From NCBI RefSeq assembly GCF_000014265.1, contig NC_008312.1:5370001-5402000 (forward strand): a stretch of DNA of 32,000 bases, written 5' to 3'. Position 1 is the stretch's first letter. The number at the start of each line of letters is the position of its first letter. Both the position numbers and the translations under genes were made by a program. Shown here one piece after another: positions 2,070 to 30,188 of the stretch. The stretch comes from Trichodesmium erythraeum IMS101. GTDB lineage: Bacteria; Cyanobacteriota; Cyanobacteriia; Cyanobacteriales; Microcoleaceae. The notes beneath the pieces are model-generated. The model made no database searches, had not been told where the DNA came from, and worked only from the letters and a program-made list of their open reading frames with translations.

Positions 2070-2096
2070 GCAGGGAGGTAAACTGATAGGATGAAG
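1..2096 (+). repeat. Copy A of a 2.1-kb direct repeat (3' part of the fusion gene plus 26 nt past the stop)
   Basis: It aligns with 7372-9467 with no net indel: stop codons 2069 versus 9440 and alt-frame ORFs 196 versus 7567 both differ by 7371. Similarity ends after ...ggtaaactgataggatgaa. Confidence 0.9.
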
Positions 2097-2194
2097 CTTA
2101 GGTAATTATGACACGCCAGTTGAAAGTAATTGAAAGTAGAAGGAAGTGAAACCCAATACACTCTTTATTGTTTAGACATTTATATATATTTATT

Positions 2195-4717: not shown

Positions 4718-4967
4718 CAATACAGGGAAAAGGGGAGACCCCTGTTCCATAATGTTCTAGAAAAAAACTTTTCTACTAAAAATATAATAGCCTAACAAAA
4801 TTCCATGGCGACATTCCCTAGCCTCAGCATAATTAATAATTTATTCTCTTGTAGGTTGGGTTGCACTGACCGTTACAAACCCTTAAGCGAACACAAATAT
4901 CTATCTATTAGACATCTAGACATCTGCCTCAACTAAGTTTTTACCCACAACAAAATCAGTTATTAGT

Positions 4968-5191
4968 TCAGGACTTATAGTCATTTTACAGCAGTTTTCA
5001 TCTTGGTAGACCACAGTAGGGACGCCCTTATGCAATGTCCCTACAAAATTTTGGTTATGATGATGTAGTTCATCAATTTGAAAACTGCTATAATTTAGAT
5101 TCAGGACTTACGTAAAGGCACTACTTGTAGTGTAAATATCTAAATTTATTGTCAAAAATGCACTATATATGCCGGCACTGCGTAAGTCCTG
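4968..5191. repeat. Nested inverted and direct repeats, MITE-like small repeat elements in the intergenic region
   Basis: tcaggactta occurs at 4968 and 5101. caggacttacg (5102-5112) pairs with cgtaagtcctg (5181-5191) as a perfect 11-nt inverted repeat. cagcagttttca (about 4991) pairs with tgaaaactgcta (about 5081). A central hairpin is formed by gtagggac...gtccctac (about 5018-5047). Confidence 0.4.
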
Positions 5192-5264
5192 GAAATATTA
5201 AATTTATTTGCGAAAAATGTTTGATTATTAGATAATAATGACAGGATTATTTTAGTTAAAAAAT

Positions 5265-8200: not shown

Positions 8201-9440
8201 CAATGTCAATATCCAAGGTAGATTAAATGAAAATTATATCAAAAGTCGGTTAGAAAAAGCCACCACGGCTCCTCTGAATCAAGAAAAATTGTTGTCTGCC
8301 CTACAAATATTACAAATAGACCCTTTAGTCAAAACTCTATCTGCGGAACTTTCATCCGGAGTCCGCCCAGATACAAGTAGGTTAGACATAAGAATAGAAA
8401 CAGCTAACCCCTGGCAAATAGAAACTATCAGTAATAATGGCAGGGCACCAAGTGTGGGAACATTCAGGCGAGGGGTAGAGGTAGGCCATAGAAATGTTAC
8501 AGGTATTGGAGACAGTTTAAGTGCTCTCTATACTAATACTGATGGCAGCGATATGGTAGAAGTATCTTATGCTATTCCTGTGAACTCCAGTAATGGTCGT
8601 ATCGAACTATTTTATCGCCACAGAGATAATAAGGTGGTAGAATCACCTTTTGAAAGACTTGATATTGAGTCAAATTCAAATACTTACAAGTTATCATTTA
8701 GTCAACCAATAATGCAAACACCCTGGCAAACTTTAAGTTTGGGTTTATCTGCAATAAAGCGAGATAGTCAAACTTCTATATTAGGAGAGAATTATCCATT
8801 ATCTGAGGGTGCTGATGAAAATGGGGAAACGAAATTATCAATTTTGCAGCTTTTCCAAGATTATGAACTACGGGGAAAAAATCAAGTTTTGGCGTTTAAT
8901 TCTCAGTTGAATGTAGGGTTGGGAATATTGGATGCTACAAAGAATAGTAATGAACCGGATGGTCGATTTTTTTATTGGCGGGGTCAAGGACAATGGGTGC
9001 GTGAGTTAGGCAAAAATACTTTGTTGGTGATGGGAGCAGATCTACAGTTATCTCCATCTGATTTGGTGCCTAAGGAAAGGTTTGGTTTAGGGGGTTATCG
9101 AAGTGTGAGAGCTTATCGTCAGGATACTCGTTTGACAGATAATGGAGCGTTGGGAACAGTGGAGTTGCGGTTGCCCGTGCCCTGGATATCTGGAAAAAAT
9201 AGATTATTTCAGGTAGTGCCGTTTATTGATGGGGGGGTAGCATGGAATAGTGATGGTAAAGAGGAGGAAGGAAGTAAGGCTTTGGCGGCGGCCGGGGTGG
9301 GGTTGCAGGTAAATTTATGGGAGAAGATAAATATGCGCTTAGATTATGGAATTCCTTTAGTGGATGTGGACTCCCTAGATAAAACGGCTCAGGAGGAAGG
9401 GTTTTATTTTTCTTTTTCTACTACTCCTTTTTCTTTTTGA
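5265..9440 (+). CDS. Single-polypeptide fusion of a TpsA-like passenger (TPS/haemagglutination-activity domain plus repetitive beta-helix) with a TpsB-like transporter (2 POTRA plus ShlB/FhaC/HecB-type barrel)
   Basis: 1391-aa uninterrupted ORF. Hydrophobic signal region ...FGFFSPSALA/QLQPDNTLGEENSVV. TPS motifs GANLFHSFQEFNI, FSNPDGVQNILTRVTG and FINPNGIIFG (NPNG at 5787). Gly/Asn/Thr-rich beta-helix repeats. The conserved cyanobacterial TpsA C-terminus is present (NPCRQGQKSKFIITGRGGLPP...EAQGWISNSQGIELI). A Pro-rich linker follows, then POTRA-like KVTIKQFNFEGNTKFSNQEL...LRVVEGKVGEINV, then a barrel ending in FYFSFSTTPFSF. Confidence 0.85.
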   Translation: MNFYFVVTRQYLLKSHTNFTITLRRKSSTINRYLRTESLNSEDLWRNLTLSVFLLFGFFSPSALAFFIHFLLFGFFSPSALAQLQPDNTLGEENSVVTPNINIKGIESDRIDGGAQRGANLFHSFQEFNIQQGRGVYFSNPDGVQNILTRVTGNNGSNILGTLGVDGKADLFFINPNGIIFGPEAKLDVQGSFYGATADSILFKNGFEFASSDPQAPPLLTVNVPIGLRLPEKPGSILVEGQGHNINMSEYLETYGYRNRKEDRNLGLEVSQGQTLGLVGGDIFLRGGNLTSDGGRVELGSVQNGVVEITTDRTLSYDKNLEFGQIILSEASSIDISGNGRVEFQIQGEEINVQDNSLILGKILGDEDGGNSIIRASKSIKIGPTKPFEKIPVKIKIVNFTYTFNKTMSSIFLNTYGKGDVGELRVKTESLTLQDGAVIYTGTVGQGNAGNLTVSARDIEINGGNYATGFFPTTLAEGNGGNLTVEVAESLTLQDGAVMSAGTGYQGNAGNLTVSARDIEMSGFVVVTTITETTGNGGNLTVEVAESLTLQDGAVMSAGTVGQGNAGNLIVSATDIEIIGKSPDGKSFSRLTAEATNESTGAAGTITINTETLNLRNEAEIIVTSATQQAAGDLIINSNNIRIENQASLKAETKGGQGSITINNNKDLILRNNSNITTNSEGTATGGNITINTENLVARDNSDITANAVEGFGGRVNITAAGIFGTEFRPEQTEKSDITATSKLGASFSGEVNINTPDVDPSDGLVEFEDTIPDISNLLDQNPCRQGQKSKFIITGRGGLPPTLEEPLAPTYLWQDSETSVTPPPAITPSEQEFIEAQGWISNSQGIELITDPETATPTSPWLIPPNCEQLDTFEPPPYLLASSKGNIPTSTSEPLKVTIKQFNFEGNTKFSNQELQQQLTPYLNKPITFAQLIAARTAITKFYTKNNYITSGAFIPPQTMAENGTVTLRVVEGKVGEINVNIQGRLNENYIKSRLEKATTAPLNQEKLLSALQILQIDPLVKTLSAELSSGVRPDTSRLDIRIETANPWQIETISNNGRAPSVGTFRRGVEVGHRNVTGIGDSLSALYTNTDGSDMVEVSYAIPVNSSNGRIELFYRHRDNKVVESPFERLDIESNSNTYKLSFSQPIMQTPWQTLSLGLSAIKRDSQTSILGENYPLSEGADENGETKLSILQLFQDYELRGKNQVLAFNSQLNVGLGILDATKNSNEPDGRFFYWRGQGQWVRELGKNTLLVMGADLQLSPSDLVPKERFGLGGYRSVRAYRQDTRLTDNGALGTVELRLPVPWISGKNRLFQVVPFIDGGVAWNSDGKEEEGSKALAAAGVGLQVNLWEKINMRLDYGIPLVDVDSLDKTAQEEGFYFSFSTTPFSF
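5421..5510 (+). repeat. In-frame tandem duplication (39-nt unit, 51-nt period) inside the signal-peptide coding region
   Basis: tttctcctctttggatttttttccccctc(t/c)gccctcgct occurs at 5421-5459 and 5472-5510 with one synonymous difference. It encodes FLLFGFFSPSALA twice. Confidence 0.9.
5511..6250 (+). other. TPS (two-partner-secretion / haemagglutination activity) domain of the fusion protein (approximate bounds)
   Basis: It starts right after the predicted ALA/Q cleavage site and contains the NPxG-type motifs listed above. Boundaries are estimated by eye. Confidence 0.6.
6531..7010 (+). repeat. Three near-identical in-frame repeats (periods 180 and 171 nt) in the passenger beta-helix
   Basis: gaaagtttaacgctgcaagatggagccgttat starts at 6549, 6729 and 6900. 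The encoded unit is GNGGNLTVEVAESLTLQDGAVMSAGTxxQGNAGNLTVSARDIE. Confidence 0.85.
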
Positions 9441-13437: not shown

Positions 13438-13896
13438 TTAATACTTAAGGTTACTAATTTTCTCCAATCTAAGTTTTCTTTCAACCACAGCCTGGTCAAT
13501 TTTTTGAACTCCTTCTAGTGAGATTAGTGACTTACATTGATTAACTAAACTATTCCAATTTAATAATGTTTTAATTGAGTTTGAATTCTCTATTTTTTTG
13601 ACATAAAACTGTGCCCAAAACTTAGGTACATACTTTTGCTTTCTAGTTTTTATTCGCTTTCGCCATTTAGCAAAGTCTGCTTTTCTTGGTGGTTCTACTC
13701 CTATTACTGGTGGCATATCTGCATAACTGACAAACCTACTTTTTCCTTTTCCTACAACATGAATTACATATTTCCAACAGCTAATTTTATAAATGTTATC
13801 CCATTGAATTCCTAAATGAAATGATAGTGCATCTATAGTTACAAATCTACCTAAAGGATGAGTATAAGTATATTTATTTTCCATACTTCTTTTCAT
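13438..13896 (-). CDS. Hypothetical basic protein (orphan ORF in a very AT-rich island)
   Basis: It is the only ORF of 60 aa or more in the 1.9-kb gap between gloA and lipA. It is Lys/Arg-rich (WRKRIKTRKQKY) and contains a GKGKS motif. No recognisable domain and no clear RBS. Confidence 0.35.
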   Translation of the reverse strand: MKRSMENKYTYTHPLGRFVTIDALSFHLGIQWDNIYKISCWKYVIHVVGKGKSRFVSYADMPPVIGVEPPRKADFAKWRKRIKTRKQKYVPKFWAQFYVKKIENSNSIKTLLNWNSLVNQCKSLISLEGVQKIDQAVVERKLRLEKISNLKY

Positions 13897-19535: not shown

Positions 19536-20171
19536 TTAATCTACTAAGGCACTAACTAGAATATTTGTCATAAATTTTTCTTTGATTTTATACCATAGTT
19601 TTGTATCTACAATATCACATTTGGCACCAACTTGAACAAGGCGATCGTCAAGGTAGTTTAGATGTTCTTTTGTCACTTGATCTTCTCCTACTTGTAAAAA
19701 ACTAATTCCTAGTTCATAGCTCTTTTGTGTACCTGGAATAAAATTAATTTTCTTAGTAGCATTGATAATTAAATTAATCAGTGCTTTTTGCTCGTGAGAT
19801 ATTTTATCTACTAATACTAAAATAATATCTCCATTTTGAGTTTTCTTGGCATCTCGACGTTGAAAATAGTCGTTAATAGCGTCTTCAAGGCTAGTTACTA
19901 AATCCATTCTTTTTGGCGGGTTTTTAATCTGAAATAGTCTGGCTAATGTTATGACCTCTGTGTTTGTCTCCTTAACAAAAGGTTTTGATGCCAAGTAAAC
20001 AGTAATTCCACTATTATCTAATGATTGACAAAATTTTGCTAAGTTAATGATTTTTGTTTGGGCTGCAAGCCAATGCTCATAATGAGGATGAGAAAAAGAC
20101 CAGCTTTCATGACTTCTGGCGAAAATAAATGTGTAGTCTCTATTTTCGAGCGACAGATGGTTCTCAGCCAT
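19536..20171 (-). CDS. vWA (TerY-like) domain protein with a degenerate MIDAS motif
   Basis: The overall pattern ENRDYTFIF...GITVYL...INDYFQRR...GDIILVLVD...ISFLQVGEDQ...LNYLDDRL...CDIVDT matches, as I remember it, the small cyanobacterial vWA family (ENRDYTLIIDKSGSM...ISFIQVG...LDD...DIxDT). The MIDAS DxSxS position here reads ARSHE. Confidence 0.55.
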   Translation of the reverse strand: MAENHLSLENRDYTFIFARSHESWSFSHPHYEHWLAAQTKIINLAKFCQSLDNSGITVYLASKPFVKETNTEVITLARLFQIKNPPKRMDLVTSLEDAINDYFQRRDAKKTQNGDIILVLVDKISHEQKALINLIINATKKINFIPGTQKSYELGISFLQVGEDQVTKEHLNYLDDRLVQVGAKCDIVDTKLWYKIKEKFMTNILVSALVD

Positions 20172-20483
20172 AGATTTTTTACCTAAGATTTTAGTGAGGA
20201 ATAATGTAGCTTTTTGTTCTTAATGATCAAAATAGTGGTAATCTTAATTAATCTATGTAAATTTGAATACTAAAAATTTTTATTTGAACGGAAATTAATC
20301 TTGATTTGTTAGGATTTCTTGACTTGCTTGAAGTTTAACGTTATCAAGTGTTATCATATAATAATCATCTCAAATAATAGCCTGGTAAAATTTTTTAAAC
20401 TAAGGACAACTTCTGAAATATGTTTGATAAGTCCTGATTAATTATGAGATACTCGGGTTTTCTTAAGTAGGCGATCGCACTGT

Positions 20484-20800
20484 GAGAAATAGTCATGAGA
20501 AATAGTCAAAAGTAACTTCTTCAAAGGTGAAAGGAAGTTAAGAAAATTAAAAGTTTAAAAATCAAGTTAATAGTTAATAGTTAAGGGTAAGATTTTATGG
20601 GTTCAAAATAATGATAAATATGAGGATAGTATGATCGGAAAAGTCAAAGGTTACCTATTCAAAGGTAAGAGGAAGTTAAAGGTTAAAATTCAAAAGTTAG
20701 AAAAATTCAAAAGTTAGAAAAGGTTAAGAGTTCAAGGTTAAATGTCAGGCTTTATCCCTTCACAATAATGATAAATATGACTATAGTATTATTAGGTATA
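20484..20800. repeat. Purine-rich AGTCAAAAG/GTTAAAAG-type degenerate short-repeat array organised as two tandem units of about 130-150 bp
   Basis: Unit A spans 20504-20632 and unit B 20642-20790. Each begins agtcaaa(a)g...ttcaaaggt(g/a)a(a/g)aggaagtta. Each ends ttca(a/c)aataatgataaatatga(gg/ct)atagtat. The pair is flanked by atactcgg...gcgatcgc at 20449-20478 and 20803-20836. Confidence 0.8.
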
Positions 20801-21011
20801 AAATACTCGGCTGTTGTGAAATAGGGGAGCGATCGCTATAGTAAAAATAGAATATTTTATTGCTCAAAACATCATAAGTTAAGATCAAGTTTGAGCTTTA
20901 AAGTTGATGTTCTCCGGGGAAATTAGTGATAATTTATTGCTGATTCTGTATAATTATGGTATGATTGTTATAAAAAATCCTGTTATAATTTTTGACCCGG
21001 CTTTTGTTTTT

Positions 21012-24000
21012 ATGTTTACCAGAATCTTCAGCATCACTTATTTGGCCCAAACTTGCCTGGCAGCTATTGTTATTATCAATGGCCTAGAAGCTTTGGTTGT
21101 GCAGCCTGTATGGGCACAGACTTATGTCTTTCCACAAGAACCATCAACAACCGAAGCAACTGAGGAGCTGATAATTAATGGGACTCTCAATGAAAATAGT
21201 GAGCTGTTGGAAGATGGGAGTTACTTTCAGTGGCACACTTTTACGGGCAAGGCGGGTGAAGCTATTACTATTGAGTTGAGTAGTTCTGAGTTTGATGCTT
21301 ACTTAATGTTAGTAGACCCAAGATCCAATAAAATTGCTGAGAATAATGATGGAGGGGAAAATAATAATGCCAAAATTACAATAACTCTACCTACAACAGG
21401 AACTTATACAGTTATTGTCAATACCTATGAAAAAGGTCAACAAGGAAGTTACAAACTGAGTTGGCGACAGGCTTCAGCTAAAGACCAGTCCCTAGCTTCT
21501 GCCACAGAACTTAATGACAAAGCTATTGAACTATATAAACAAGGTAAATATGATGAAGCAGTTCCTTTATTAGAGCAGTCTTTGAAAATTAGGCAGCAGG
21601 CGCTGGGGGCTGAACATCCTGATGTTGCCGCCAGCCTCAACAATTTGGCTTTTCTTTACAATGCTCAAGGAAGGTATACAGAAGCGGAACCTTTGTATAT
21701 ACAAGCATTAGAGATGAGAAAGAAGCTCCTGGGTGCTGAACATCCTGATGTTGCCTCCAGCCTCAACAATTTGGCTTTTCTTTACAAAGCTCAAGGAAGG
21801 TATACAGAAGCGGAACCTTTGTATATACAAGCATTAGAGATGAGAAAGAAGCTCCTTGGTGCTGAACATCCTGATGTTGCCACCAGCCTCAACAATTTGG
21901 CTTCTCTTTACGAATCTCAAGGAAGGTATACAGAAGCGGAACCATTGTATATACAAGCATTAGAGATATTTAAGAAGCTCCTGGGTGCTGAACATCCTGA
22001 TGTTGCCACCAGCCTCAACAATTTGGCTTTTCTTTACAATGCTCAAGGAAGGTATACAGAAGCGGAACCTTTGTATATACAAGCATTAGATATGACAAAG
22101 AAGCTCCTGGGTGCTGAACATCCATCAGTTGCCACCAGCCTCAACAATTTGGCTTTACTTTACGAGGATCAAGGAAGGTATACAGAAGCGGAACCTTTGT
22201 ATATACAAGCATTAGAGATGAGAAAGAAGCTCCTGGGTGCTGAACATCCTGATGTTGCCACCAGCCTCAACAATTTGGCAGGACTTTACAATGCTCAAGG
22301 AAGGTATACAGAAGCGGAACCTTTGTATATACAAGCATTAGAGATGAGAAAGAAGCTCCTTGGTGCTGAACATCCTGATGTTGCCACCAGCCTCAACAAT
22401 TTGGCTTCTCTTTACGAATCTCAAGGAAGGTATACAGAAGCGGAACCATTGTATATACAAGCATTAGAGATATTTAAGAAGCTCCTGGGTGCTGAACATC
22501 CTGATGTTGCCTCCAGCCTCAACAATTTGGCAGGACTTTACAAGGATCAAGGAAGGTATACAGAAGCGGAACCTTTGTATATACAAGCATTAGAGATGAG
22601 AAAGAAGCTCCTGGGTGCTGAACATCCTGATGTTGCCTCCAGCCTCAACAATTTGGCAGCACTTTACAAGGATCAAGGAAGGTATACAGAAGCGGAACCT
22701 TTGTATATACAAGCATTAGAGATGAGAAAGAAGCTCCTGGGTGCTGAACATCCTGATGTTGCCTCCAGCCTCAACAATTTGGCAGGACTTTACAATGCTC
22801 AAGGAAGGTATACAGAAGCGGAACCTTTGTATATACAAGCATTAGAGATGAGAAAGAAGCTCCTGGGTGCTGAACATCCATTAGTTGCCTCCAGCCTCAA
22901 CAATTTGGCAGGACTTTACAATGCTCAAGGAAGGTATACAGAAGCGGAACCTTTGTATATACAAGCATTAGAGATATTTAAGAAGCTCCTGGGTGCTGAA
23001 CATCCATTAGTTGCCACCAGCCTCAACAATTTGGCAGGACTTTACAATGCTCAAGGAAGGTATACAGAAGCGGAACCATTGTATATACAAGCATTAGAGA
23101 TGAGAAAGAAGCTCCTGGGTGCTGAACATCCTTATGTTGCCACCAGCCTCAACAATTTGGCTTTACTTTACTATGCTCAAGGAAGGTATACAGAAGCGGA
23201 ACCATTGTATATACAAGCATTAGAGATGAGAAAGAAGCTCCTGGGTGCTGAACATCCTGATGTTGCCTCCAGCCTCAACAATTTGGCAACACTTTACAAT
23301 GTTCAAGGTGACATTGCTTCAGCAGTGCAATACCTTAAACGCGGCTTAGAAGTGCAAGAAAAAAACCTAACTTACAACTTAGCCGCCGGGGCTGAACCTC
23401 AAAAAAACAAATATCTCCAAACCATCTCAGGAGCAAAGGCTAGAGCCATCTCTCTCCATCTGCAAACAGCACCAAATGACCCAGCCGCGACCACTCTAGC
23501 ATTAACCACCATCCTACGCCGCAAAGGTCGCCTCCTCGAATTCTTCACCACCAGCAGACAAATACTCCGACAACAACTCGACACTCAAGGACTACAATGG
23601 CTAGACGAACTTAATAATATTTATAGTGAACTTTCCACTCTGCTCTATAACGGACCAAAAGATCTTCCTCTAGAAACCTACAAGGAAAATTTTGCCCTCT
23701 TAGAACAACAGGCAAAAGAACTAGAAGACAAAATTAGTCGCCGCAGTAGCCAGTTTCGGGCAGCCACCCAACCTGTAACCTTAGAAGCTATTCAGGAGTT
23801 GATACCCGCCAACGCTGCCTTAGTAGAATTTGTCCAGTATTCTCCTTTTGACCCCAAGACAGGCAAATTCGGTAAACCACGCTATGGGGTTTACGTTCTA
23901 AGTAGAGAGGGAGAACCCCAAGGCATGGACCTGGGAACAGTTGAAGAATTTAAAAACATCATAAAAGTGTTTAGAACTTCTCTACGAGACAAAAGCCAAA

Positions 24001-24998
24001 CTCCCCTAAAACAGCTTAAAGACACAGCCAGAGAACTTGACCAAAAACTGATGCAACCTGTACGTCAACTACTGGGGTCACAAAAACAAATTCTGATTTC
24101 TCCTGATAGCAATCTCAATTTAATTCCTTTTGAAGCATTAGTTGATGAGAATAACCGCTTTCTCGTAGAAAACTATAGCTTCACCTACCTAAGCTCAGGA
24201 CGGGACTTACTCACATTTACCTCCACACCAAGAAACACCTCACCAGCGGTATTGCTAGGATACCCTACATACTCGGAAAAAGATCAGGTAACTATTAAGT
24301 CTAAGGGTAGGTTCGGTGTCTCCGACTTAGGTCTTTCTGGACTACCAGGAACCGAAGAGGAGGTCAAAGCCATTGGTGAGTTGCTTGGAGTTGAACCTTT
24401 ACTACGAGAGGCAGCCACTGAAGAAGCCGTAAAACAAGTTCAAAGTCCTTTCATATTGCATATTGCTACTCATGGTTTATTTGAAACAATTGAAGATCCT
24501 GAGAAATATCCCACGATAAATAAAAATTCCCTACTACGGGCAAGTTTAGCTCTGGCTGGGGTTAAAGAGGAACAAATAGATGGAGATAATGGTTTATTGA
24601 CCGCTTTGGAAGCCGCCGGGCTGAATTTGCTAGGCACAGAGCTAGTGGTATTATCCGCCTGTGACACAGGGCTGGGGGGAATAAGTCCCGGAGAGGGGGT
24701 TTATGGACTTAGACGAGCATTCGCGATCGCAGGTTCCCAGAGTCAGGTAATTAGTTTATGGAAAGTTGATGACCAAGGGACGAAAGACTTAATGGTGAAG
24801 TATTATCAACGGTTGTTGGGAGGAGACATGGGACGAACAGAAGCTTTAAGGCAGACTCAACTGGAGATGCTGGGGGGGGAAGCCGGGGAAAAGTACAGTC
24901 ATCCTTATTTTTGGGCGAGTTTTATTCCCTCTGGAAATTGGCTGGCGATCCCTCCCAGGGTAGAAAGTAAAAAATCAAAAGTCAACAGTCAAAGGTAA
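21012..24998 (+). CDS. Exported PPC (pre-peptidase C-terminal-like) domain - 15x TPR - CHAT protease
   Basis: The ORF opens at TTG 20904 / ATG 20907. ATG 21012 gives MFTRIFSITYLAQTCLAAIVIINGLEALVVQPVWA/QT, which is signal-peptide-like. The PPC-like segment is GSYFQWHTFTGKAGEAITIELSSSEFDAYLMLVD...GTYTVIVNTYEKGQQGSYKLSW. There are 13 near-identical plus 2 degenerate 42-aa TPR units. The CHAT dyad is ILHIATHGLF (His codon 24471-24473) and LVVLSACDTGLG (Cys codon 24660-24662), then ISLWKVDD. Confidence 0.85.
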   Translation: MFTRIFSITYLAQTCLAAIVIINGLEALVVQPVWAQTYVFPQEPSTTEATEELIINGTLNENSELLEDGSYFQWHTFTGKAGEAITIELSSSEFDAYLMLVDPRSNKIAENNDGGENNNAKITITLPTTGTYTVIVNTYEKGQQGSYKLSWRQASAKDQSLASATELNDKAIELYKQGKYDEAVPLLEQSLKIRQQALGAEHPDVAASLNNLAFLYNAQGRYTEAEPLYIQALEMRKKLLGAEHPDVASSLNNLAFLYKAQGRYTEAEPLYIQALEMRKKLLGAEHPDVATSLNNLASLYESQGRYTEAEPLYIQALEIFKKLLGAEHPDVATSLNNLAFLYNAQGRYTEAEPLYIQALDMTKKLLGAEHPSVATSLNNLALLYEDQGRYTEAEPLYIQALEMRKKLLGAEHPDVATSLNNLAGLYNAQGRYTEAEPLYIQALEMRKKLLGAEHPDVATSLNNLASLYESQGRYTEAEPLYIQALEIFKKLLGAEHPDVASSLNNLAGLYKDQGRYTEAEPLYIQALEMRKKLLGAEHPDVASSLNNLAALYKDQGRYTEAEPLYIQALEMRKKLLGAEHPDVASSLNNLAGLYNAQGRYTEAEPLYIQALEMRKKLLGAEHPLVASSLNNLAGLYNAQGRYTEAEPLYIQALEIFKKLLGAEHPLVATSLNNLAGLYNAQGRYTEAEPLYIQALEMRKKLLGAEHPYVATSLNNLALLYYAQGRYTEAEPLYIQALEMRKKLLGAEHPDVASSLNNLATLYNVQGDIASAVQYLKRGLEVQEKNLTYNLAAGAEPQKNKYLQTISGAKARAISLHLQTAPNDPAATTLALTTILRRKGRLLEFFTTSRQILRQQLDTQGLQWLDELNNIYSELSTLLYNGPKDLPLETYKENFALLEQQAKELEDKISRRSSQFRAATQPVTLEAIQELIPANAALVEFVQYSPFDPKTGKFGKPRYGVYVLSREGEPQGMDLGTVEEFKNIIKVFRTSLRDKSQTPLKQLKDTARELDQKLMQPVRQLLGSQKQILISPDSNLNLIPFEALVDENNRFLVENYSFTYLSSGRDLLTFTSTPRNTSPAVLLGYPTYSEKDQVTIKSKGRFGVSDLGLSGLPGTEEEVKAIGELLGVEPLLREAATEEAVKQVQSPFILHIATHGLFETIEDPEKYPTINKNSLLRASLALAGVKEEQIDGDNGLLTALEAAGLNLLGTELVVLSACDTGLGGISPGEGVYGLRRAFAIAGSQSQVISLWKVDDQGTKDLMVKYYQRLLGGDMGRTEALRQTQLEMLGGEAGEKYSHPYFWASFIPSGNWLAIPPRVESKKSKVNSQR
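21603..23240 (+). repeat. 13 tandem 126-bp (42-aa) near-identical TPR-coding units
   Basis: The unit LGAEHPxVAxSLNNLAxLYxxQGRYTEAEPLYIQALxxxKKL starts at 21603 + n*126. Unit 3 (21855) and unit 7 (22359) appear identical over all 126 nt, which indicates a 504-bp (4-unit) higher-order duplication. Confidence 0.95.
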
Positions 24999-25190
24999 GA
25001 ATAGTCAAAAGTTAAAGGTTAAAAATCAAAGGTAAGAGTAGTTAGGATCAGTCAAAAGTTAATAGTTAAAAATCAAAAATAAGAGAATTCAAAAATCAAA
25101 TTTCAAAAGTCAAAAATCAAAAGTAAGAGAAGTTAAGAAAAGTCAAAAATTAATAGTTAAAAGTCAAAAGTTAAGAAGATTTGTTAAATA
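24966..25190. repeat. Second purine-rich AGTCAAAAG/GTTAAAAG-type short-repeat array, overlapping the last codons of the CHAT gene
   Basis: It contains words such as agtcaaaagttaaaggttaaaaatcaaaggtaagag, agtcaaaagttaatagttaaaaatcaaaaataagag and agtcaaaaattaatagttaaaagtcaaaagttaagaag. It ends at HIP1 25192. The vocabulary is the same as in 20484-20800. Confidence 0.8.
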
Positions 25191-25461
25191 AGCGATCGCC
25201 GCAGTAAATATAGAAGAAAAATTAGTTTCAGTAAAAATTAATCAAAGAAAAATTATCATCTCTTCATCAATTCTCAATTATAATTCAGCTCTAAAAAACT
25301 ATCTCTGGTCAATAGGTATCAGAGAGCCAGAAATACTGAAGAAACTCAGAAAAGAAACATCAAAACTCAAAAGTAGGTGATGCAAATATGCCCAGAGCAA
25401 AGTACCTTTATTCTAGTATAACTTCTCTTGAAGCAACTCATCAAAATTCATACTAAATATC

Positions 25462-25592: not shown

Positions 25593-28500
25593 TTATACAC
25601 GGGCATTACCAAAATTCACATCAGAAACATTTTGACCACCAGATACGTTGATCAAACTTGCTTGACCAGAAGGGGGAGCAGTTTGATTAAAGATAGCGCT
25701 CTGCTCTGGGTTTAAGTCCTGACGAATTGTATAACCAGCATCTGCCAAACCAGGGAAGCTATAGTTACCATTGATATCACTAGCAACAAGTACTTCATTA
25801 GCATCTTGAATAGAGTTGTTATTCTGATCCAAGTAAAGAACAACACCACCAATACCAGGTTCACCAGGATCTAGCAAACTATTAGCATTGAGATCCTCAA
25901 AAGTTATCCCACTAATACTACCTGTACCTGTAGGTGGTGGTGGCGGTGCCACAGGTAATATTGGTTGTGGCGTAGTGCTATTACCAAAGTTGACAAAATT
26001 AGCATCATCCCCTGCAAACAGTGTCACAACAGGGTTTTGACCAGTTTGGAATAGACCTGGTAATGGTAACTGTTGAACTTTGTAAGTACCAGGTGGTATC
26101 TCAAAATCATATACTCCCAACGAATCTGTAACCGCCTTACGTTCCTCATTATCAAGGATTAAGTTATCATTGCGGTCAAGGAATACAGTAGCACTAGGAA
26201 TACCATTCTCTCCTGGACCTATCAAGCCATCACCATTGATATCATTGAAAACAACACCACCAAGATTTGCAGTAGTAGGCACAGCAGGCGGGAGATTTGT
26301 AGGAGCATTCGCAAGGTTAACAAACTCAGCATTGTCCCCTGCTGCCAAAGTAATTACAACAGGAGATGGAGTACTAGAGTCAGTGAAACCTGGTTGTGCT
26401 TCCTGACGAACAACATAAGTTCCTGGAGCTACAAACGGGATATCGTAGCGACCAAATTGGTCCGTTAAAGCAAACCGCTCATTACTATCTCGTTCCCCGT
26501 TCTCATTAGCATCTATGTAGATAGTAACATCAGGCAGTTGAAGTTCACCAGCCTCTGCCTGACCATCAGCGTTATCGTCTATAAATGCAATACCAGAAAT
26601 ATTAGCAAAATCAGGAGGAGGAAGAACCGGAGACTGCCCAAAGTTAATTACTATGTTAGAGTTCTCAAACGCATCAACCGTAATTGGAAGATCTGTTGGA
26701 GTTGTAGCAGTATAACTTTGTGAAACCACGTTGGGATCATTCGGGTCTGTAATAGGGTCTGGTGGAATTAGTCGTAATGTGTAAGTACCAGGCAACAAAC
26801 CAACAATTGCATAGTCTCCGTTAGTATCTGTGAACGCATTAGGTTCAATATCTCGGTTGTCAAGAATACCATTCTCATTTAGATCTACATATACCTGGAA
26901 ACGAGGTACACCCATTTCTACACGCTCATCAGGATCAAGGATGCCATTGACATTAGTATCATTAAAGTCTTGAATACCATTACTATTAAAGTCTTCAAAG
27001 ACATTTCCTGTAATTAGGGTTTGTGGTTGGTTTCCAAAGTTGTAAACAACACTACGACCACCGCCAACTGTTACTACTGCTGGTGGAGTAGTTTGCACAA
27101 ACCCTGTACGATCAAGAATTTGTAGTAGGGGAAATGATCCTTTTTTACCAGATGCATCTAGACCATAAGTACCATCAGGACCACTAAGTTGATTTGGTTC
27201 AAAGCCTTGTATTTGTCCGTCTGTGTGAGTGTCTAAGAAAACCTCAACACCAGGTAAACCTACTTCCCCTTTTAGAGGTTCAAATAGTCCGTTACCATTA
27301 TTGTCAGCAAATACAATACCACTAACAGTATCTTTCTCTGGTGATGTGACGTTAACACCCACATCAATATTAGTTACACTTTGACCAAAGGGAAGATTAA
27401 TCGAAGTTGGTGATACATTAGGGTTTGGTACCACCTCACCGACAGTAACATTAATAACTGGGCGAGTGGCAGTTAAGAATAAGTTTTCTTGCTGAACAAC
27501 ACCAATTGTATAATTAGCAGGAGTTACACCATTAAATGTATAACGACCATCAGGAGCTGTAAAAGTTGCAACTTCGTCAACATCAACTACACCATCGCCA
27601 TCTATGTCTTGTTCGCCTTCATTTATTATCCCGTCACCGTTAAGATCTTCACGGCTATCTAGTCGTCCATCACCATCTATATCTAAGAAAACTTCAGCAG
27701 TTGGAATACCTGCTTCTCCTGAATCTTGGACTCCATTGTTATTACTATCAGTAAAGATGATACCACTAATACTGGTATTCGGGTCAAAGATACTGGTATC
27801 ACCAAAATTGTATACAACAGTCTGACCGGGAACAACTGGAACTAGGGGAGTAGGAGTAGTGTTAACAAAACCTGCAGGTGGTGTTTCTAAAACTCTAAAG
27901 TTTCCTGGCTGCAATGTAAAGCGATATTCCCCGTTAGGATCTGTTCGGGTAATTGGTTCATTAGCTTCTGGGAAACCATTACCATTTTGGTCTACAAAAA
28001 CTTGAACATCTATGAGTCTTGGTTCGTCAGGACCTGCTAAACCGTCAGCATTGCGATCGTCAAATTTAACCCCAGTAATTGTACCAGAAGCAAAGGTATT
28101 CATAGGGGCATTTAGAGGAAGTGTTACTGATGCATCAACTTGGCTACCAATATTGACGAAACTAATATTGTTACCTTCAGTCAAGTTAATTACTGGATCG
28201 GGAGTAATTTGTCTGAAACCTTGTTCCTGAATTACCTTGATCGGATAAGTATTAGCTGGGATATTCTCAAAGCTATAACGACCCTCTACATCAGTCATAG
28301 ACTGAGGTTCACCCGCACTTAACTTTTTGTCATCATTAAGGTCTAGATAAACAGTGAACCCAGGAAGACCAGGCTCTTCAGGATCCATTACATTGTTACC
28401 ATTGATATCATTAAACTTAGTACCAGCAATTCTGCCTGTTCCTGTTAGTTGGCTAGCAGTTAGGTTACCGTCTTCTACTGCTTCTGGAGCAGGTGCTGGA

Positions 28501-30188
28501 AGTGCTTCTGGAGCAGGTGCTGGAAGTGGTTCTGGAGTAGTTGGCACAGAATTACCTACATTCAATATAATAGGTCGATCACCTTGTAGAAGGTTAATTG
28601 GTTCAACTATATTAATGCTCTGATCTGGAGTAGTTTTAACAAAACCAGGTTGAGGTATTTCCCTCAAAGAGTAAGTTCCTACCGGAAGAGAATCAAAGCT
28701 ATAGTCACCAGCAGGATTTGATATTGAAGCTGGTTCATTAGCGTCTAGTACATTGTTACCATTCAGGTCTAAATATAAAGTAAAATTCGCTAAACCTGGT
28801 TCTCTTGGATCTAAAAGTCCATTGGAATTAAAGTCGTTAAATTTCTTACCTCTTAATTGACCTTGAAGTAAAGGAGTGTCAGGAACTTGACCTATATTAA
28901 CAATATTAATATCTTCGCCACTTGTTACAGCAACAACTGGATCTGGAACTGTTTGAGTAAAACCAGGTTGGGGCACTACTTCGACAACGTAAGTACCTGG
29001 AGGTAAGGTATTAAAACTATATTCACCTTGATGACCAGTAATTCTAAAAGGTTCATTTTGCTCAAAGATACCATTTTGATTTAGGTCTAGATAGACAGTG
29101 GAGTTAGATAAACCTACATCTCCTGGATCAATGGCACCATTAGAATTATTATCTAAGAAATTAATACCTGAGATACCATTGATTTGAGCATTAGCAAAGT
29201 TAACCCCTGGTAAGGTTCCTCCCATAGGTACATCAACAGTCATAGTCTGAGGTTGGGTTACTACATTAAATTTTAGTTGTTGCTCTGCTTCGCGAATATT
29301 GAGGCGGGTGGCTGGCAAATTAGCTAAGAAGTAGTTACCCTCCTGGTTAGTGACATCAAATGGTTCTTTTGGATCTAGAATATTATTACTATTGATATCT
29401 GCATAGATAGTAAAGTTTGGTAAACCTTCTTCCCCCAAATCAAACATACCATTAGTATTACTGTCTAGGTATTTAACACCTTGAACATTACCTGTACCAA
29501 CAGGAGTAATGAGACCGATATCTATAGCTACGTTTGGTATTTCTTCTTCTGTTCCAGTAAAGATGATAACTGGGTTAAGAGTTGTTCTTGCTTCATTTGG
29601 TCCACGGACTACATCCACGTTTAATAGACTAGATGTAACCCCTGTAAATGAGTAAAAACCAAATTGATCAGTTACACTAGTAATCTCCCCTTCATCTAAA
29701 ACTCCATTTCTATTACTATCAAGAAATACTTCGTACCCAGAAATGATTGGTTCATTAGAATCTTGGGTACCGTTAATGTTTAGGTCTTTAAATAATACAC
29801 CACTAATATTACCGCCTGGGCCAGTTGCAGCGCTACCAAATAGAAAACCGGAAACATTAGGTTCTTCTGGGCTCAGACTAATAAATGTAGGGTCTGGGAT
29901 AGTTTGAACAAAACCAGGTTGATCAAATCCCCGAAGAGTGTAAATCTGATTTAAGGGTAAATTAGTAAAACTAAAGCTACCATCATCCCCACTAATTGAT
30001 GATAGTTCATCAGGATCTAATTGACCATTATTATTTTGATCTAAATATATAGTAATTCCTGGTAAGCCTGGTTCTAAGGCGTCCCGAAGGCCATCACGAT
30101 TAAAGTCATTGTACTTGATACCAGAAATATTACCCAGGACAGAATTTAAAGGAACTGTCTGTCCACCTATGTTGTTGTCTATACTCAC
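25593..30188 (-). CDS. Giant surface/extracellular-type protein made of 13 SdrD-B-like (Cna-B fold) Ca2+-binding repeats
   Basis: There are 13 units of about 105-120 aa. Each has GxxFxDxNxNGxxD followed by VYLDxNxNGxxDxxE...TDxxGxYxFxxLPxGxYxV...PGFxQTxP. GTG start at 30188 with GGAGGAG (30196-30202) 7 nt upstream. A Pro/Ala linker PEPLPAPAPEALPAPAPEA lies mid-protein. Confidence 0.85.
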   Translation of the reverse strand: MSIDNNIGGQTVPLNSVLGNISGIKYNDFNRDGLRDALEPGLPGITIYLDQNNNGQLDPDELSSISGDDGSFSFTNLPLNQIYTLRGFDQPGFVQTIPDPTFISLSPEEPNVSGFLFGSAATGPGGNISGVLFKDLNINGTQDSNEPIISGYEVFLDSNRNGVLDEGEITSVTDQFGFYSFTGVTSSLLNVDVVRGPNEARTTLNPVIIFTGTEEEIPNVAIDIGLITPVGTGNVQGVKYLDSNTNGMFDLGEEGLPNFTIYADINSNNILDPKEPFDVTNQEGNYFLANLPATRLNIREAEQQLKFNVVTQPQTMTVDVPMGGTLPGVNFANAQINGISGINFLDNNSNGAIDPGDVGLSNSTVYLDLNQNGIFEQNEPFRITGHQGEYSFNTLPPGTYVVEVVPQPGFTQTVPDPVVAVTSGEDINIVNIGQVPDTPLLQGQLRGKKFNDFNSNGLLDPREPGLANFTLYLDLNGNNVLDANEPASISNPAGDYSFDSLPVGTYSLREIPQPGFVKTTPDQSINIVEPINLLQGDRPIILNVGNSVPTTPEPLPAPAPEALPAPAPEAVEDGNLTASQLTGTGRIAGTKFNDINGNNVMDPEEPGLPGFTVYLDLNDDKKLSAGEPQSMTDVEGRYSFENIPANTYPIKVIQEQGFRQITPDPVINLTEGNNISFVNIGSQVDASVTLPLNAPMNTFASGTITGVKFDDRNADGLAGPDEPRLIDVQVFVDQNGNGFPEANEPITRTDPNGEYRFTLQPGNFRVLETPPAGFVNTTPTPLVPVVPGQTVVYNFGDTSIFDPNTSISGIIFTDSNNNGVQDSGEAGIPTAEVFLDIDGDGRLDSREDLNGDGIINEGEQDIDGDGVVDVDEVATFTAPDGRYTFNGVTPANYTIGVVQQENLFLTATRPVINVTVGEVVPNPNVSPTSINLPFGQSVTNIDVGVNVTSPEKDTVSGIVFADNNGNGLFEPLKGEVGLPGVEVFLDTHTDGQIQGFEPNQLSGPDGTYGLDASGKKGSFPLLQILDRTGFVQTTPPAVVTVGGGRSVVYNFGNQPQTLITGNVFEDFNSNGIQDFNDTNVNGILDPDERVEMGVPRFQVYVDLNENGILDNRDIEPNAFTDTNGDYAIVGLLPGTYTLRLIPPDPITDPNDPNVVSQSYTATTPTDLPITVDAFENSNIVINFGQSPVLPPPDFANISGIAFIDDNADGQAEAGELQLPDVTIYIDANENGERDSNERFALTDQFGRYDIPFVAPGTYVVRQEAQPGFTDSSTPSPVVITLAAGDNAEFVNLANAPTNLPPAVPTTANLGGVVFNDINGDGLIGPGENGIPSATVFLDRNDNLILDNEERKAVTDSLGVYDFEIPPGTYKVQQLPLPGLFQTGQNPVVTLFAGDDANFVNFGNSTTPQPILPVAPPPPPTGTGSISGITFEDLNANSLLDPGEPGIGGVVLYLDQNNNSIQDANEVLVASDINGNYSFPGLADAGYTIRQDLNPEQSAIFNQTAPPSGQASLINVSGGQNVSDVNFGNARV
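28481..28537. repeat. 24-bp tandem repeat (about 2.4 copies) encoding the PAPAPEAL linker
   Basis: cttctggagcaggtgctggaagtg occurs at 28481-28504 and 28505-28528, followed by a partial third copy. Confidence 0.9.

What the first reader, a model, noticed from the sequence alone, without database searches (positions are those of the whole stretch)
21603..23366. TPR array under concerted evolution with variation confined to predicted ligand-facing positions
Seen in sequence: 13 consecutive 42-aa units are identical at 34 positions. They vary only at 8: HP[D/S/L/Y]V, A[A/S/T]S, LA[F/S/L/G/A/T]LY, Y[N/K/E/Y][A/S/D]Q and AL[E/D][M/I][R/F/T]KK. Synonymous differences are very few (cct/cca Pro, ctg/ctt Leu, cct/cca in EHP). 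Units 3 and 7 appear nucleotide-identical, which indicates a 4-unit block duplication. Established knowledge: in canonical TPR numbering (W4-L7-G8-Y11, here L-N-N-L-A-x-L-Y) the variable residues fall on helix-A positions 2, 9, 12 and 13. These line the concave peptide-binding groove in characterised TPR-ligand complexes. Inference: the array is being homogenised while the binding face diversifies, in the style of repeat-variable residues. That would give the attached CHAT protease a programmable or multi-specific substrate-recognition surface.
Basis: partly seen in the sequence, partly recalled or inferred. Interest (0 to 1): 0.7.

Follow-up and report, generated by a model that had tools for sequence, protein, structure and literature searches.

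The report
Near-identical TPR repeats, hypervariable binding groove
A Trichodesmium gene for a probably exported caspase-like (CHAT) protease carries 13 almost identical 42-residue TPR repeats that differ only at the residues predicted to touch a bound peptide. This copies a pattern already known from fungal and bacterial immune-receptor repeats, so it is a good new example and not a new principle.

Summary
Thirteen in-frame 126-nt units (21603-23240) plus a half-homogenised 14th (to 23366) are 92.8% identical in DNA. Thirty-four of 42 codons are invariant in protein. All amino-acid variation falls at positions 7, 10, 17, 20, 21, 37, 38 and 39.

Three corrections:
- Synonymous diversity is not low per site (pS 0.092 against pN 0.066).
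- Five codons, not three, vary only synonymously.
- There is no intact 4-unit block duplication. Exact identity spans only 219 nt.

The interpretation mostly holds.
- The same six positions are the most variable in 34 independent units from another Trichodesmium genome and within 65 homologues from many cyanobacterial genera.
- Five of the eight coincide with experimentally defined cargo-contact positions of kinesin light chain TPRs, next to an invariant Asn-Asn ladder.
- dN/dS is about 2-3 at these codons and 0-0.4 elsewhere.
- Array-specific fixed synonymous variants show homogenisation, and shuffling below the unit length shows recombination.
- DGR mutagenesis is excluded.

This is the "high internal conservation" repeat regime described for fungal NLR TPRs and noted in bacterial NLRs. 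Here it has no NTPase, is fused directly to CHAT, and sits behind a signal-like leader and a PPC domain. The "programmable substrate recognition" reading is untested.

The parts
21012..24998 (+). Gene for the leader-PPC-TPR(x15)-helical-CHAT protein. The mechanical ORF starts at TTG 20904 and gene callers use ATG 20907. The start conserved among homologues is ATG 21012 (MFTRIFS...).
21012..21119 (+). Signal-peptide-like or signal-anchor N-terminus (MFTR, then a hydrophobic stretch, then VWA|QT)
   Evidence: Hydropathy maximum 2.37 over 15 residues. Similar leaders occur in 29 of 51 full-length homologues. No dedicated signal-peptide predictor was available.
21228..21422 (+). PPC (bacterial pre-peptidase C-terminal) domain, precisely absent from several paralogues
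   Evidence: Pfam PF04151, E 1.4e-9. Deletion seen in L001, L002 and IMS101 Tery_3262.
21477..21602 (+). Degenerate N-terminal TPR unit (unit 0), not homogenised
21603..23240 (+). Thirteen homogenised 126-nt (42-aa) TPR units. Hypervariable codons are 7, 10, 17, 20, 21, 37, 38 and 39 of each unit. The Asn13-Asn14 ladder is invariant.
23241..23366 (+). Unit 14, the C-terminal cap. About the first 66 nt are homogenised with the array and the rest is diverged.
21789..22007 (+). Copy A of the longest exact internal duplicate (219 nt); includes unit 3
22293..22511 (+). Copy B of the 219-nt exact duplicate; includes unit 7
23367..24020 (+). All-helical linker region between the TPR array and CHAT
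   Evidence: AlphaFold model secondary structure. The model aligns to Csx29 and separase over its whole length.
24021..24938 (+). CHAT caspase-like protease domain. Catalytic His codon at 24471-24473 and Cys codon at 24660-24662.
   Evidence: Pfam PF12770, E 4e-81. His and Cys are invariant in 35 homologues. Coordinates. Fold matches.
25218..25411 (+). Frameshifted remnant of an O-methyltransferase gene. The intact gene lies just downstream of the counterpart gene in Trichodesmium MAG_R02, which makes this a positional-orthology marker.

Best explanation
The array is a high-internal-conservation (HIC) TPR domain of the kinesin-light-chain (42-residue) type.

Evolution. Unequal recombination and gene conversion between the 126-nt units, and probably between paralogous arrays, keep the structural scaffold nearly identical. 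The same processes change unit number and shuffle short 'patch' alleles. Diversifying selection keeps many different residues at six to eight positions. These positions line the inner (concave) groove of the TPR superhelix.

Binding. The invariant Asn13-Asn14 pair of every unit probably grips the backbone of an extended peptide, as in KLC1. The variable neighbours at positions 7, 10, 17, 20, 21 and 39 would read the side chains. Each array would then present a different, rapidly replaceable set of binding pockets.

Output. The array is fused through a helical linker to an intact CHAT (caspase/separase-like) protease, so ligand capture in the groove most likely either recruits the protein to be cut or controls the protease.

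Location. A signal-like leader and a PPC domain suggest that this happens in the periplasm or at the cell surface.

Shown here: the repeat anatomy, the site-specific variability and its replication in other arrays, the homogenisation signatures, the homology to KLC and to Csx29/separase, and the intact catalytic dyad. Inferred: peptide binding, coupling to proteolysis, export and the biological role.
For: - Anatomy.
- Pfam TPR_10/TPR_12 x15, PPC and CHAT.
- KLC1 TPR is the best solved relative (E 1.8e-73). The AlphaFold fragment has pLDDT 94.5 and matches cargo-bound KLC1 6fuz with TM 0.79.
- KLC1-JIP1 contact residues (PMC6214655) map to unit positions 10, 13, 14, 17, 18, 20, 21, 25 and 39, and every residue letter checks. 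Overlap with the variable set is 5 of 8 (P 0.006), and the helical-face directions are 278 and 277 degrees.
- Independent replication: in 34 units from other Trichodesmium arrays the six most variable positions are 17, 39, 20, 7, 21 and 10 (permutation p < 1e-5). Within 65 homologues from many genera the top six are 39, 17, 20, 10, 7 and 21.
- Selection: in the window dN is 0.44 against dS 0.18 at the 8 codons, and dN is 0 against dS 0.083 at the other 34. In other arrays, with classes fixed beforehand, omega is 2.0-3.05 against 0.29-0.37. Allele-network counts are 47 nonsynonymous to 6 synonymous against 26 to 18 (Fisher p 9.5e-4).
- Homogenisation: array-specific fixed synonymous variants, and 1.8% difference within the array against 5-7% between arrays. 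The terminal units are diverged.
- Shuffling: four-gamete incompatibilities between patches and a 219-nt exact duplicate. Most patch alleles are shared at the nucleotide level with another genome, yet 0 of 13 units are shared.
- CHAT: dyad invariant, and the fold matches Csx29 and separase.
- Leader.
- Precedent: PMC4986451, bioRxiv 2020.01.06.895854 and PMC13449251.
Against: - omega above 1 rests on few codons, on counting methods that ignore recombination, and on arrays that share ancestry. Strongly relaxed constraint is not formally excluded.
- Positions 37 and 38 are not known KLC contact positions, and position 7 is placed on the face only by helical periodicity.
- No coordinates were available, so concave-face mapping is by homology and helical wheel, not by measured solvent exposure.
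- Export is inferred from hydropathy and a PPC domain only.
- No ligand, substrate or partner gene is evident in the window, and PADLOC has no system-level match.
- Unit order and number cannot be verified, because short-read contigs of the same strain break in the array and disagree at its first units.
Confidence: 0.62

Rival explanations
1. A recent tandem amplification of one TPR unit, with merely relaxed constraint at solvent-exposed positions. There would be no ongoing homogenisation and no selection for diversity.
For: Overall dN/dS across the unit is 0.71. The omega estimates at the variable codons (1.7-3.1) come from 8 codons and ignore recombination. The 219-nt exact duplicate shows very recent duplication.
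Against: - The same positions are hypervariable within arrays of 65 homologues across cyanobacterial genera, so this is not a one-off expansion.
- Array-specific synonymous variants are fixed in 13 of 13 units, while multi-nucleotide patch alleles are shared with other genomes. That combination needs exchange, not a single burst.
- Four-gamete incompatibilities are present.
- The variable positions coincide with ligand-contact positions and not with exposed positions in general. Most of helix B is exposed yet invariant in the window.
Confidence: 0.15
2. The array as written is partly an assembly artefact. Unit number, unit order or patch combinations could be wrong because 126-nt repeats at 93% identity cannot be resolved by short reads.
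For: All metagenome contigs of a near-identical strain end within 0 to 2.7 units of the array start. Outside repeats they carry only 6-7 mismatches over 13.6 kb. Inside the array they disagree with the window at the unit 0/1 junction and at unit 3. The MAG_R02 counterpart is split over two contigs with N runs.
Against: The window array is in frame, has 12 distinct units and has ordered unique flanks. Collapse would reduce diversity, not create it. The per-position pattern does not depend on unit order and is reproduced in other assemblies.
Confidence: 0.1
3. Targeted mutagenesis by a diversity-generating retroelement (or another dedicated mutator) creates the variable positions.
For: Variation is sharply localised to first and second codon positions. 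DGRs occur in multicellular cyanobacteria and can target CHAT-containing proteins (PMC10907252).
Against: - No reverse transcriptase or template repeat is present in the window.
- 8 of 21 variable columns never carry A, and 34 invariant columns are A, including the AAC AAT codons of the Asn ladder.
- The variable patches are a small set of discrete alleles shared between genomes, not random substitutions.
- The target is a tandem array, not a single C-type-lectin variable repeat.
Confidence: 0.02
4. The TPR superhelix is mainly a structural scaffold or a polymer-binding element in the envelope (for example binding polysaccharide, or self-assembling). The variable residues would tune assembly and would not recognise peptides.
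For: The protein is probably exported. Periplasmic TPR domains that bind exopolysaccharide exist, such as PgaA (PMC9384988, listed). Fifteen repeats make about two superhelical turns, more than a short peptide motif needs.
Against: The closest relatives by sequence and fold are peptide-binding KLC TPRs. The peptide-backbone-binding Asn pair is strictly conserved, and the side-chain-contact positions are the ones that vary. A scaffold role does not predict site-specific diversification.
Confidence: 0.1

Closest known systems
High-internal-conservation (HIC) TPR repeats of fungal NB-ARC/NACHT NLRs (Podospora anserina; Dyrka et al. 2014, PMC4986451; crystal structure of the 42-residue repeats, PDB 4Y6C/4Y6W)
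   Same: - 42-residue KLC-type TPR units that are more than 85% identical.
- Variation restricted to a few codons that map to the concave face on a KLC model.
- Repeat-number differences between alleles or paralogues.
- Repeat shuffling together with positive selection.
- 4Y6C and 4Y6W are direct sequence hits (E about 1e-25).
   Different: - No NOD NTPase here.
- The output domain is a C-terminal CHAT protease fused directly to the array.
- The organism is bacterial.
- The protein has a signal-like leader and a PPC domain, so it is probably not cytosolic.
- No RIP-type mutagenesis is involved.
HIC TPR/WD40 repeats in bacterial NLR-like proteins of multicellular bacteria (bioRxiv 2020.01.06.895854; PMC13449251)
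   Same: The same lineage type (filamentous cyanobacteria) and the same repeat regime. CHAT is among the effector domains seen in those proteins.
   Different: Those reports concern ATPase-containing architectures and do not analyse site-wise variation in a TPR-CHAT family. PMC13449251 reports HIC in only 5.6% of repeat proteins without an ATPase, against 22% of those with one.
Kinesin light chain TPR domain bound to cargo peptides (PDB 6FUZ, 6FV0, 3ZFW; PMC6214655)
   Same: The same 42-residue repeat, 40-50% identity and TM up to 0.79. The Asn pairs that hydrogen-bond the peptide backbone are conserved. Cargo-specificity residues fall at the unit positions that are hypervariable here.
   Different: KLC has six diverged repeats, is eukaryotic and cytosolic, has no protease, and is not homogenised.
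TPR-CHAT proteases: Csx29 of type III-E Craspase, and separase
   Same: A helical/TPR region followed by a CHAT caspase-like domain. They are the best structural matches to the C-terminal 564 residues (8d9h_E, E 5e-14; separase, E about 1e-7). In both, the helical part controls the protease through a bound partner.
   Different: Only 11-15% identity. No Cas7-11 or CRISPR context is present. The NCBIfam Csx29 model does not hit this protein. Those TPRs are few and diverged.
TALE repeat-variable diresidues
   Same: Near-identical tandem units with variation at a few fixed positions. A TALE-inspired screen already recovered TPR proteins of this kind (PMC5472282).
   Different: No one-unit-to-one-monomer code is known or shown here. 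Six to eight positions spread over two helices vary, not a diresidue loop. The ligand is presumably a peptide, not DNA.

Membership tests
KLC-type 42-residue TPR (Pfam TPR_10 / TPR_12) | Pfam models matched above the gathering score, with a 42-residue period | tested here: met
   TPR_12 934.6 bits and TPR_10 756.6 bits, 14-15 stretches. Exact 42-aa spacing.
KLC-type 42-residue TPR (Pfam TPR_10 / TPR_12) | Helix-turn-helix units forming a right-handed superhelix like the KLC TPR | tested here: met
   Model pLDDT 94.5, with helices at unit positions 6-21 and 25-43. Foldseek hits 6fuz with TM 0.79 and rmsd 3.6.
HIC (high internal conservation) repeat domains, in the sense of Dyrka 2014 | Repeats more than 85% identical over at least 100 residues | tested here: met
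   Mean 89.8% amino-acid identity over 546 residues.
HIC (high internal conservation) repeat domains, in the sense of Dyrka 2014 | Hypervariable codons with an excess of nonsynonymous change, located on the binding surface | tested here: met
   omega is 2-3 at the 8 codons against 0-0.4 elsewhere. Five of the 8 are KLC1 contact positions. Caveat: counting methods only, and no recombination-aware model.
HIC (high internal conservation) repeat domains, in the sense of Dyrka 2014 | Repeat-number polymorphism and unit exchange between alleles or paralogues | tested here: inconclusive
   Relatives have from about 4 to at least 13 units and share no whole unit with the window. True same-locus alleles could not be compared, because short-read contigs break in the array.
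NLR / STAND receptors | A central NACHT or NB-ARC NTPase domain | tested here: not met
   No NTPase family appears among the Pfam hits of the 1364-aa protein. The region between TPR and CHAT is an all-helical linker.
CHAT (caspase-like) proteases | CHAT domain with the catalytic His and Cys | tested here: met
   PF12770, E 4.2e-81. His (ATHG) and Cys (SACDTG) are invariant in 35 homologues and located. Activity itself was not tested.
Type III-E Craspase Csx29 | Match to the Csx29 family model, and association with Cas7-11/gRAMP and a CRISPR array | tested here: not met
   NCBIfam NF041237 does not hit this protein. No cas genes are found in the 32-kb window. Only a fold-level resemblance exists.
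DGR variable-repeat targets | A nearby reverse transcriptase and template repeat, with substitutions confined to template adenines | tested here: not met
   No RT in the window. 8 of 21 variable columns never carry A, and 34 invariant columns are A. The rest of the genome could not be searched.
FxSxx-COOH system TPR protein (NCBIfam NF040586) | Full-length match to the model, plus the system's partner genes | tested here: not met
   344 bits against a cutoff of 300, but only profile positions 441-738 of 830 (the TPR part) are matched. None of the partner genes was found among the window's annotated ORFs.
TALE-like modular code | A one-to-one correspondence between the variable residues of a unit and one monomer of a polymeric ligand | not testable with these tools
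   No ligand is known.
Sec-exported proteins | A cleavable N-terminal signal peptide | tested here: inconclusive
   A basic n-region, a hydrophobic stretch and a VWA|QT site from M37. Similar leaders occur in 29 of 51 homologues. No SignalP-type predictor was available, and a signal anchor is equally possible.

The most novel reading that the evidence does not exclude
The TPR-CHAT family, with several paralogues per Trichodesmium genome, could be an extracytoplasmic hypervariable receptor-protease repertoire that lacks an NTPase. In this reading the proteins are exported. Their rapidly reshuffled Asn-ladder grooves read extended foreign or non-kin peptides, roughly two residues per repeat. Binding would trigger or direct caspase-like cleavage at the cell surface or in the periplasm of a colony-forming cyanobacterium. 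That would amount to an NLR-style recognition strategy working outside the cytoplasm without a nucleotide switch.
Probability: 0.15. Interest if true: 0.75.

Novelty: new member of a known kind. Interest (0 to 1): 0.42.

Why it matters
The case shows that near-identical repeat scaffolds with reshuffled hypervariable binding residues are not limited to NTPase-containing NLRs. Until now this regime was best documented in fungal NLR immune and allorecognition receptors. Here it operates across a whole family of cyanobacterial TPR-CHAT proteases that carry signal-like leaders.

A variable receptor-protease family is therefore a concrete candidate for phage sensing, kin recognition or bloom-collapse signalling.

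There are two practical points. These arrays are natural libraries built on an ultra-stable 42-residue TPR scaffold, which could guide the design of peptide binders. They are also systematically broken or mis-assembled in short-read genomes, so their diversity is under-reported.

Tried and rejected
- DGR mutagenesis was rejected on the absence of an RT or template repeat and on base specificity.
- An intact 4-unit block duplication was rejected. Only 219 nt are exactly duplicated, and units 4/8 and 5/9 differ at 9 nt each.
- NLR membership was rejected because there is no NTPase.
- Craspase/Csx29 membership was rejected because the family model does not hit and there are no cas genes.
- Membership of a known defence system was not found. 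PADLOC gives only generic TPR hits.
- The FxSxx-COOH system match is confined to the TPR part.
- I tried to fetch the IMS101 locus (P0001 and P0121, Tery_3262) to test synteny, but it is not on record.
- Two metagenome DNA scans, one with the unique 3' junction and one with the invariant 26-mer, found nothing.
- P0005 (L001) lies in an unrelated phycobilisome neighbourhood, so it is a paralogue and not an orthologue.
- Kaur et al. 2020 (PMC7159879) was checked as a possible prior description of hypervariable TPR arrays. It does not discuss them.
- No model coordinates are returned by the tools, so direct surface mapping of the variable residues could not be done. I used homology to KLC1 contact residues and helical-wheel geometry instead.
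Full report
**What is there.** The window comes from a Trichodesmium genome. The best protein match is to T. erythraeum, at 95% over the C-terminal 564 residues. Metagenome contigs of a near-identical strain match window 7910 to about 21600 with 6-7 mismatches. One large ORF (20904-24998, +) contains the finding. Homologues start at the ATG at 21012 (MFTRIFS...), which I take as the likely start. Pfam gives a PPC domain at residues 109-173, fifteen TPR_10/TPR_12 units at about 192-820, and a CHAT domain at 1040-1345. No NTPase domain is present.

**Checking the observation.**
- Tandem Repeats Finder reports a 126-nt period array at 21603-23308, with 13.5 copies and 93% matches. The LGAEHP motif recurs 14 times at exactly 42-residue spacing.
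- Among units 1-13, 21 of 126 nucleotide columns vary. They fall in patches at columns 3, 6, 18-21, 28, 48-51, 58, 60-62, 90, 111 and 114-117.
The other 34 are invariant in protein.
- Units 3 and 7 are nucleotide-identical. Mean pairwise identity is 89.8% in protein and 92.8% in DNA.
- The 14th unit (23241-23366) follows the repeat for about 66 nt and then diverges. A degenerate unit precedes the array (21477-21602).

1. Five codons vary only synonymously (L1, G2, P6, A16, P30).
2. Per site, silent diversity is not low. Nei-Gojobori gives pS 0.092, pN 0.066 and overall dN/dS 0.71.
3. T at position 17 and V at position 21 belong only to the 14th unit.
4. The 3=7 identity is part of a 219-nt exact duplicate (21789-22007 = 22293-22511). 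It is not an intact 504-nt block. Units 4/8 and 5/9 differ at 9 nt each, and 6/10 at 1 nt.

**Is the pattern more than chance, and is it reproducible?** The decisive test was replication in other arrays.
- A 26-mer from the invariant part of the unit found several arrays of the same unit in Trichodesmium sp. MAG_R02 (L002, L004, and L005/L006, which together are one gene split across two contig ends). A further paralogue lies in an ALOHA MAG (L001).
- In 34 distinct units from these arrays, the six positions of highest amino-acid entropy are 17, 39, 20, 7, 21 and 10. All six belong to the window's variable set (permutation p < 1e-5).
- With the codon classes fixed from the window, those arrays give dN/dS of 2.0-3.05 at the eight codons and 0.29-0.37 at the other 34. 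The window itself gives dN 0.44 and dS 0.18 against dN 0 and dS 0.083.
- A phylogeny-free allele-network count over 46 distinct units gives 47 nonsynonymous and 6 synonymous steps at the variable codons, against 26 and 18 elsewhere (Fisher p 9.5e-4).
- Across 65 homologues from Moorena, Nostoc, Calothrix, Microcystis and others, units within one protein are typically 65-83% identical. The most variable positions within a protein are again 39, 17, 20, 10, 7 and 21.

The window array is thus the extreme end of a trait found across the family. It is not a local oddity.

**Homogenisation and shuffling.**
- At the 102 columns of the conserved codons, window units differ by 1.8% from each other and by 5-7% from units of other arrays.
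- The window has array-specific fixed silent variants. Ser11 is AGC in 13 of 13 units but TCx in 11 of 12 units of L002. The third base of codon 28 is G in 13 of 13 against T in 11 of 12.
- The terminal units escape homogenisation.
- Multi-nucleotide patch alleles recur in different combinations. Examples are GCA-GGA, GCT-TTT, CCA-TTA and GAT-ATG-ACA. They give four-gamete incompatibilities between seven pairs of patches.
- Most patch alleles are shared at the nucleotide level with the other genome, yet not one whole unit is shared, in DNA or in protein.
- The MAG_R02 L005/L006 gene is probably the positional orthologue. Its flanks are 90-91% identical to the window's. A frameshifted remnant of its downstream O-methyltransferase gene lies at window 25218-25411. 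Unit content has therefore turned over completely between relatives.
- The T. erythraeum IMS101 relative (Tery_3262) has about six units, a precise deletion of the PPC domain, a 95% identical C-terminus and a much less similar leader. This suggests mosaic recombination between paralogues. That last point is my inference.

**Where the variable residues sit.**
- The closest solved relatives are kinesin light chain TPR domains (E 1.8e-73) and the Podospora 42-residue repeats 4Y6C and 4Y6W.
- A single-sequence AlphaFold model of eight units has pLDDT 94.5. Helix A spans unit positions 6-21 and helix B spans 25-43. The model superposes best on cargo-bound KLC1 (6fuz, TM 0.79, rmsd 3.6 A).
- The residues that Pernigo et al. 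list as contacting the JIP1 peptide (PMC6214655) map to unit positions 10, 13, 14, 17, 18, 20, 21, 25 and 39. Every residue letter checks against the numbering.
- Five of the eight variable positions (10, 17, 20, 21, 39) are contact positions (hypergeometric P 0.006).
- On a helical wheel, the variable positions of helix A point at 278 degrees and the KLC1 contact positions at 277 degrees.
- In KLC1 the Asn pairs hydrogen-bond the peptide backbone. They correspond to N13 and N14, which are invariant here.
- Position 7 lies on the same helical stripe as positions 10, 14, 17 and 21. Positions 37 and 38 could not be placed.
- Model coordinates are not returned by the tools, so this mapping is by homology and not by measured surface exposure.

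**The rest of the protein.**
- The C-terminal 564 residues were modelled with 35 homologues (pLDDT 81.5). The best matches are Csx29, the TPR-CHAT protease of type III-E Craspase (E 5e-14), then separase and a SAVED-CHAT filament.
- The catalytic His (24471-24473) and Cys (24660-24662) are invariant in the family.
- From M37 the N-terminus has a basic start, a hydrophobic stretch (Kyte-Doolittle maximum 2.37) and a VWA|QT site. Of 51 full-length homologues, 29 have similar, often textbook, signal-like leaders.
- Taken with the PPC domain, which Pfam describes as the C-terminal domain of bacterial pre-peptidases and which I know mainly from secreted proteases, this suggests an extracytoplasmic protein. 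No dedicated predictor was available, so this stays an inference.

**Alternatives.**
- DGR mutagenesis is excluded. There is no RT or template repeat in the window. Eight of 21 variable columns never carry A, 34 invariant columns are A, and the variants are discrete shared alleles.
- A recent amplification with only relaxed constraint cannot be formally excluded. The omega estimates are crude. It does not explain the family-wide recurrence, the coincidence with contact positions, or the mix of array-specific fixation with alleles shared across arrays.
- Mis-assembly of unit order or number is a real caveat. Every short-read contig of the same strain stops within 0-2.7 units of the array start, and these contigs disagree with the window at the first units. 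The per-position pattern does not depend on unit order.

**Comparison with what is known.**
- This is the "high internal conservation" regime described for the WD40, ANK and TPR repeats of fungal NLRs. In Podospora, 42-residue TPR units are more than 85% identical and repeat number is polymorphic. Positively selected sites map to the concave face of a KLC2-based model (PMC4986451).
- The same regime has been noted for bacterial NLR TPR and WD repeats (bioRxiv 2020.01.06.895854). It was recently surveyed across the tree of life. That survey found it enriched in ATPase-containing proteins but present in 5.6% of repeat proteins without an ATPase (PMC13449251).
- A TALE-inspired screen also recovered TPR proteins with variation confined to a few positions (PMC5472282).
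- The association of CHAT with TPRs is the origin of the domain's name, expanded in the figure legend of PMC13449251.
- The differences here are the lack of a nucleotide switch, the direct fusion to CHAT, and the probable export. I found no paper describing this for the cyanobacterial TPR-CHAT family or for Trichodesmium.

**Verdict.**
- The evolutionary interpretation is supported: a homogenised scaffold with a diversifying binding face.
- The block-duplication detail and the 'few synonymous changes' argument are not supported.
- The 'programmable substrate recognition' function is untested.
- It is a new member, arguably a new architectural variant, of a known kind. Interest is moderate.

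Noticed in passing
window 774-9440: A second, unrelated CHAT protein (2168-4717, with weak TPRs) lies between two other genes. One is a ShlB/FhaC-type outer-membrane transporter gene (774-2069). The other is a large gene fusing a TPS secretion domain, POTRA and a ShlB barrel (5265-9440). This looks like a two-partner-secretion-like cluster with a CHAT protease. It fits the idea that CHAT proteins in this genome act in the envelope.
   Followed up: partly
window 6547-6999 and 8063-9376: A 171-nt tandem repeat (2.6 copies, 86% matches) lies inside the TPS-POTRA-ShlB gene. Outside the TPR array, the few mismatches between the window and same-strain metagenome contigs all fall at 8063-9376, within this gene.
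   Followed up: no
window 21228-21422; L001, L002, P0001/P0121: The PPC domain is precisely present or absent among otherwise collinear paralogues. It is present in the window, L004 and L006. It is deleted between '...INGTLNE' and 'KGQQGSYKLSW' in L001, L002 and IMS101 Tery_3262.
   Followed up: partly
window 20483-20732 and 24964-25176: A-rich short tandem repeats (AAAGTCA / AAAAGTTA-type heptamers, and 13-, 17- and 47-nt periods) flank the gene on both sides, together with HIP1 (GCGATCGC) sites. The downstream repeat begins inside the coding sequence and encodes the C-terminal tail SKKSKVNSQR. IMS101 Tery_3262 has the identical tail.
   Followed up: partly
window 25218-25411: A frameshifted remnant of an O-methyltransferase gene. 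The intact gene lies downstream of the counterpart TPR-CHAT gene in MAG_R02 (L005 3401-4066).
   Followed up: yes
window 25593-30188 (-): A 1531-residue protein with 12 SdrD B-like / prealbumin-like domains. It contains a 24-nt tandem repeat (28479-28537) that encodes a PAPAPEAL-type linker. It converges on the TPR-CHAT gene.
   Followed up: no
window 19536-20171 (-) and 13438-13896 (-): Two conserved ORFs (211 and 152 aa) have no Pfam, NCBIfam or PADLOC match. The 211-aa gene is the divergently oriented upstream neighbour of the TPR-CHAT gene.
   Followed up: partly
L004 1328-1453: One unit of a MAG_R02 paralogous array carries an in-frame stop codon (ESQ*RY) and several scaffold substitutions (HINVAIS). 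This is either a decaying paralogue or a sequencing error.
   Followed up: no
L005 4800-4995: A second copy of the N-terminal leader region (77% nucleotide identity to window 21001-21200) lies upstream of an unrelated 357-aa ORF in MAG_R02. The leader may be a shared module.
   Followed up: no
window 21650 (column 48 of each unit) and equivalents: The silent third base of Ala16 tracks the first base of hypervariable codon 17. GCA precedes codons starting with G or A, and GCT precedes codons starting with T. The one exception across all Trichodesmium arrays is the Val codon GTA, found after both GCA and GCT. CCA/CCT before codon 7 behaves in a similar but less strict way. The pattern is consistent with two old haplotype lineages that diversified by single steps. 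A mutational cause was not excluded.
   Followed up: partly
L007-L009 against window 21595-21630 and 21857-21915: Same-strain short-read contigs read KIRLQILGAEHPDVATS at the array start, where the window reads KIRQQALGAEHPDVAAS. L007 also shows a unit-4-like unit in place of unit 3. This is either real population polymorphism or chimeric short-read assembly.
   Followed up: partly
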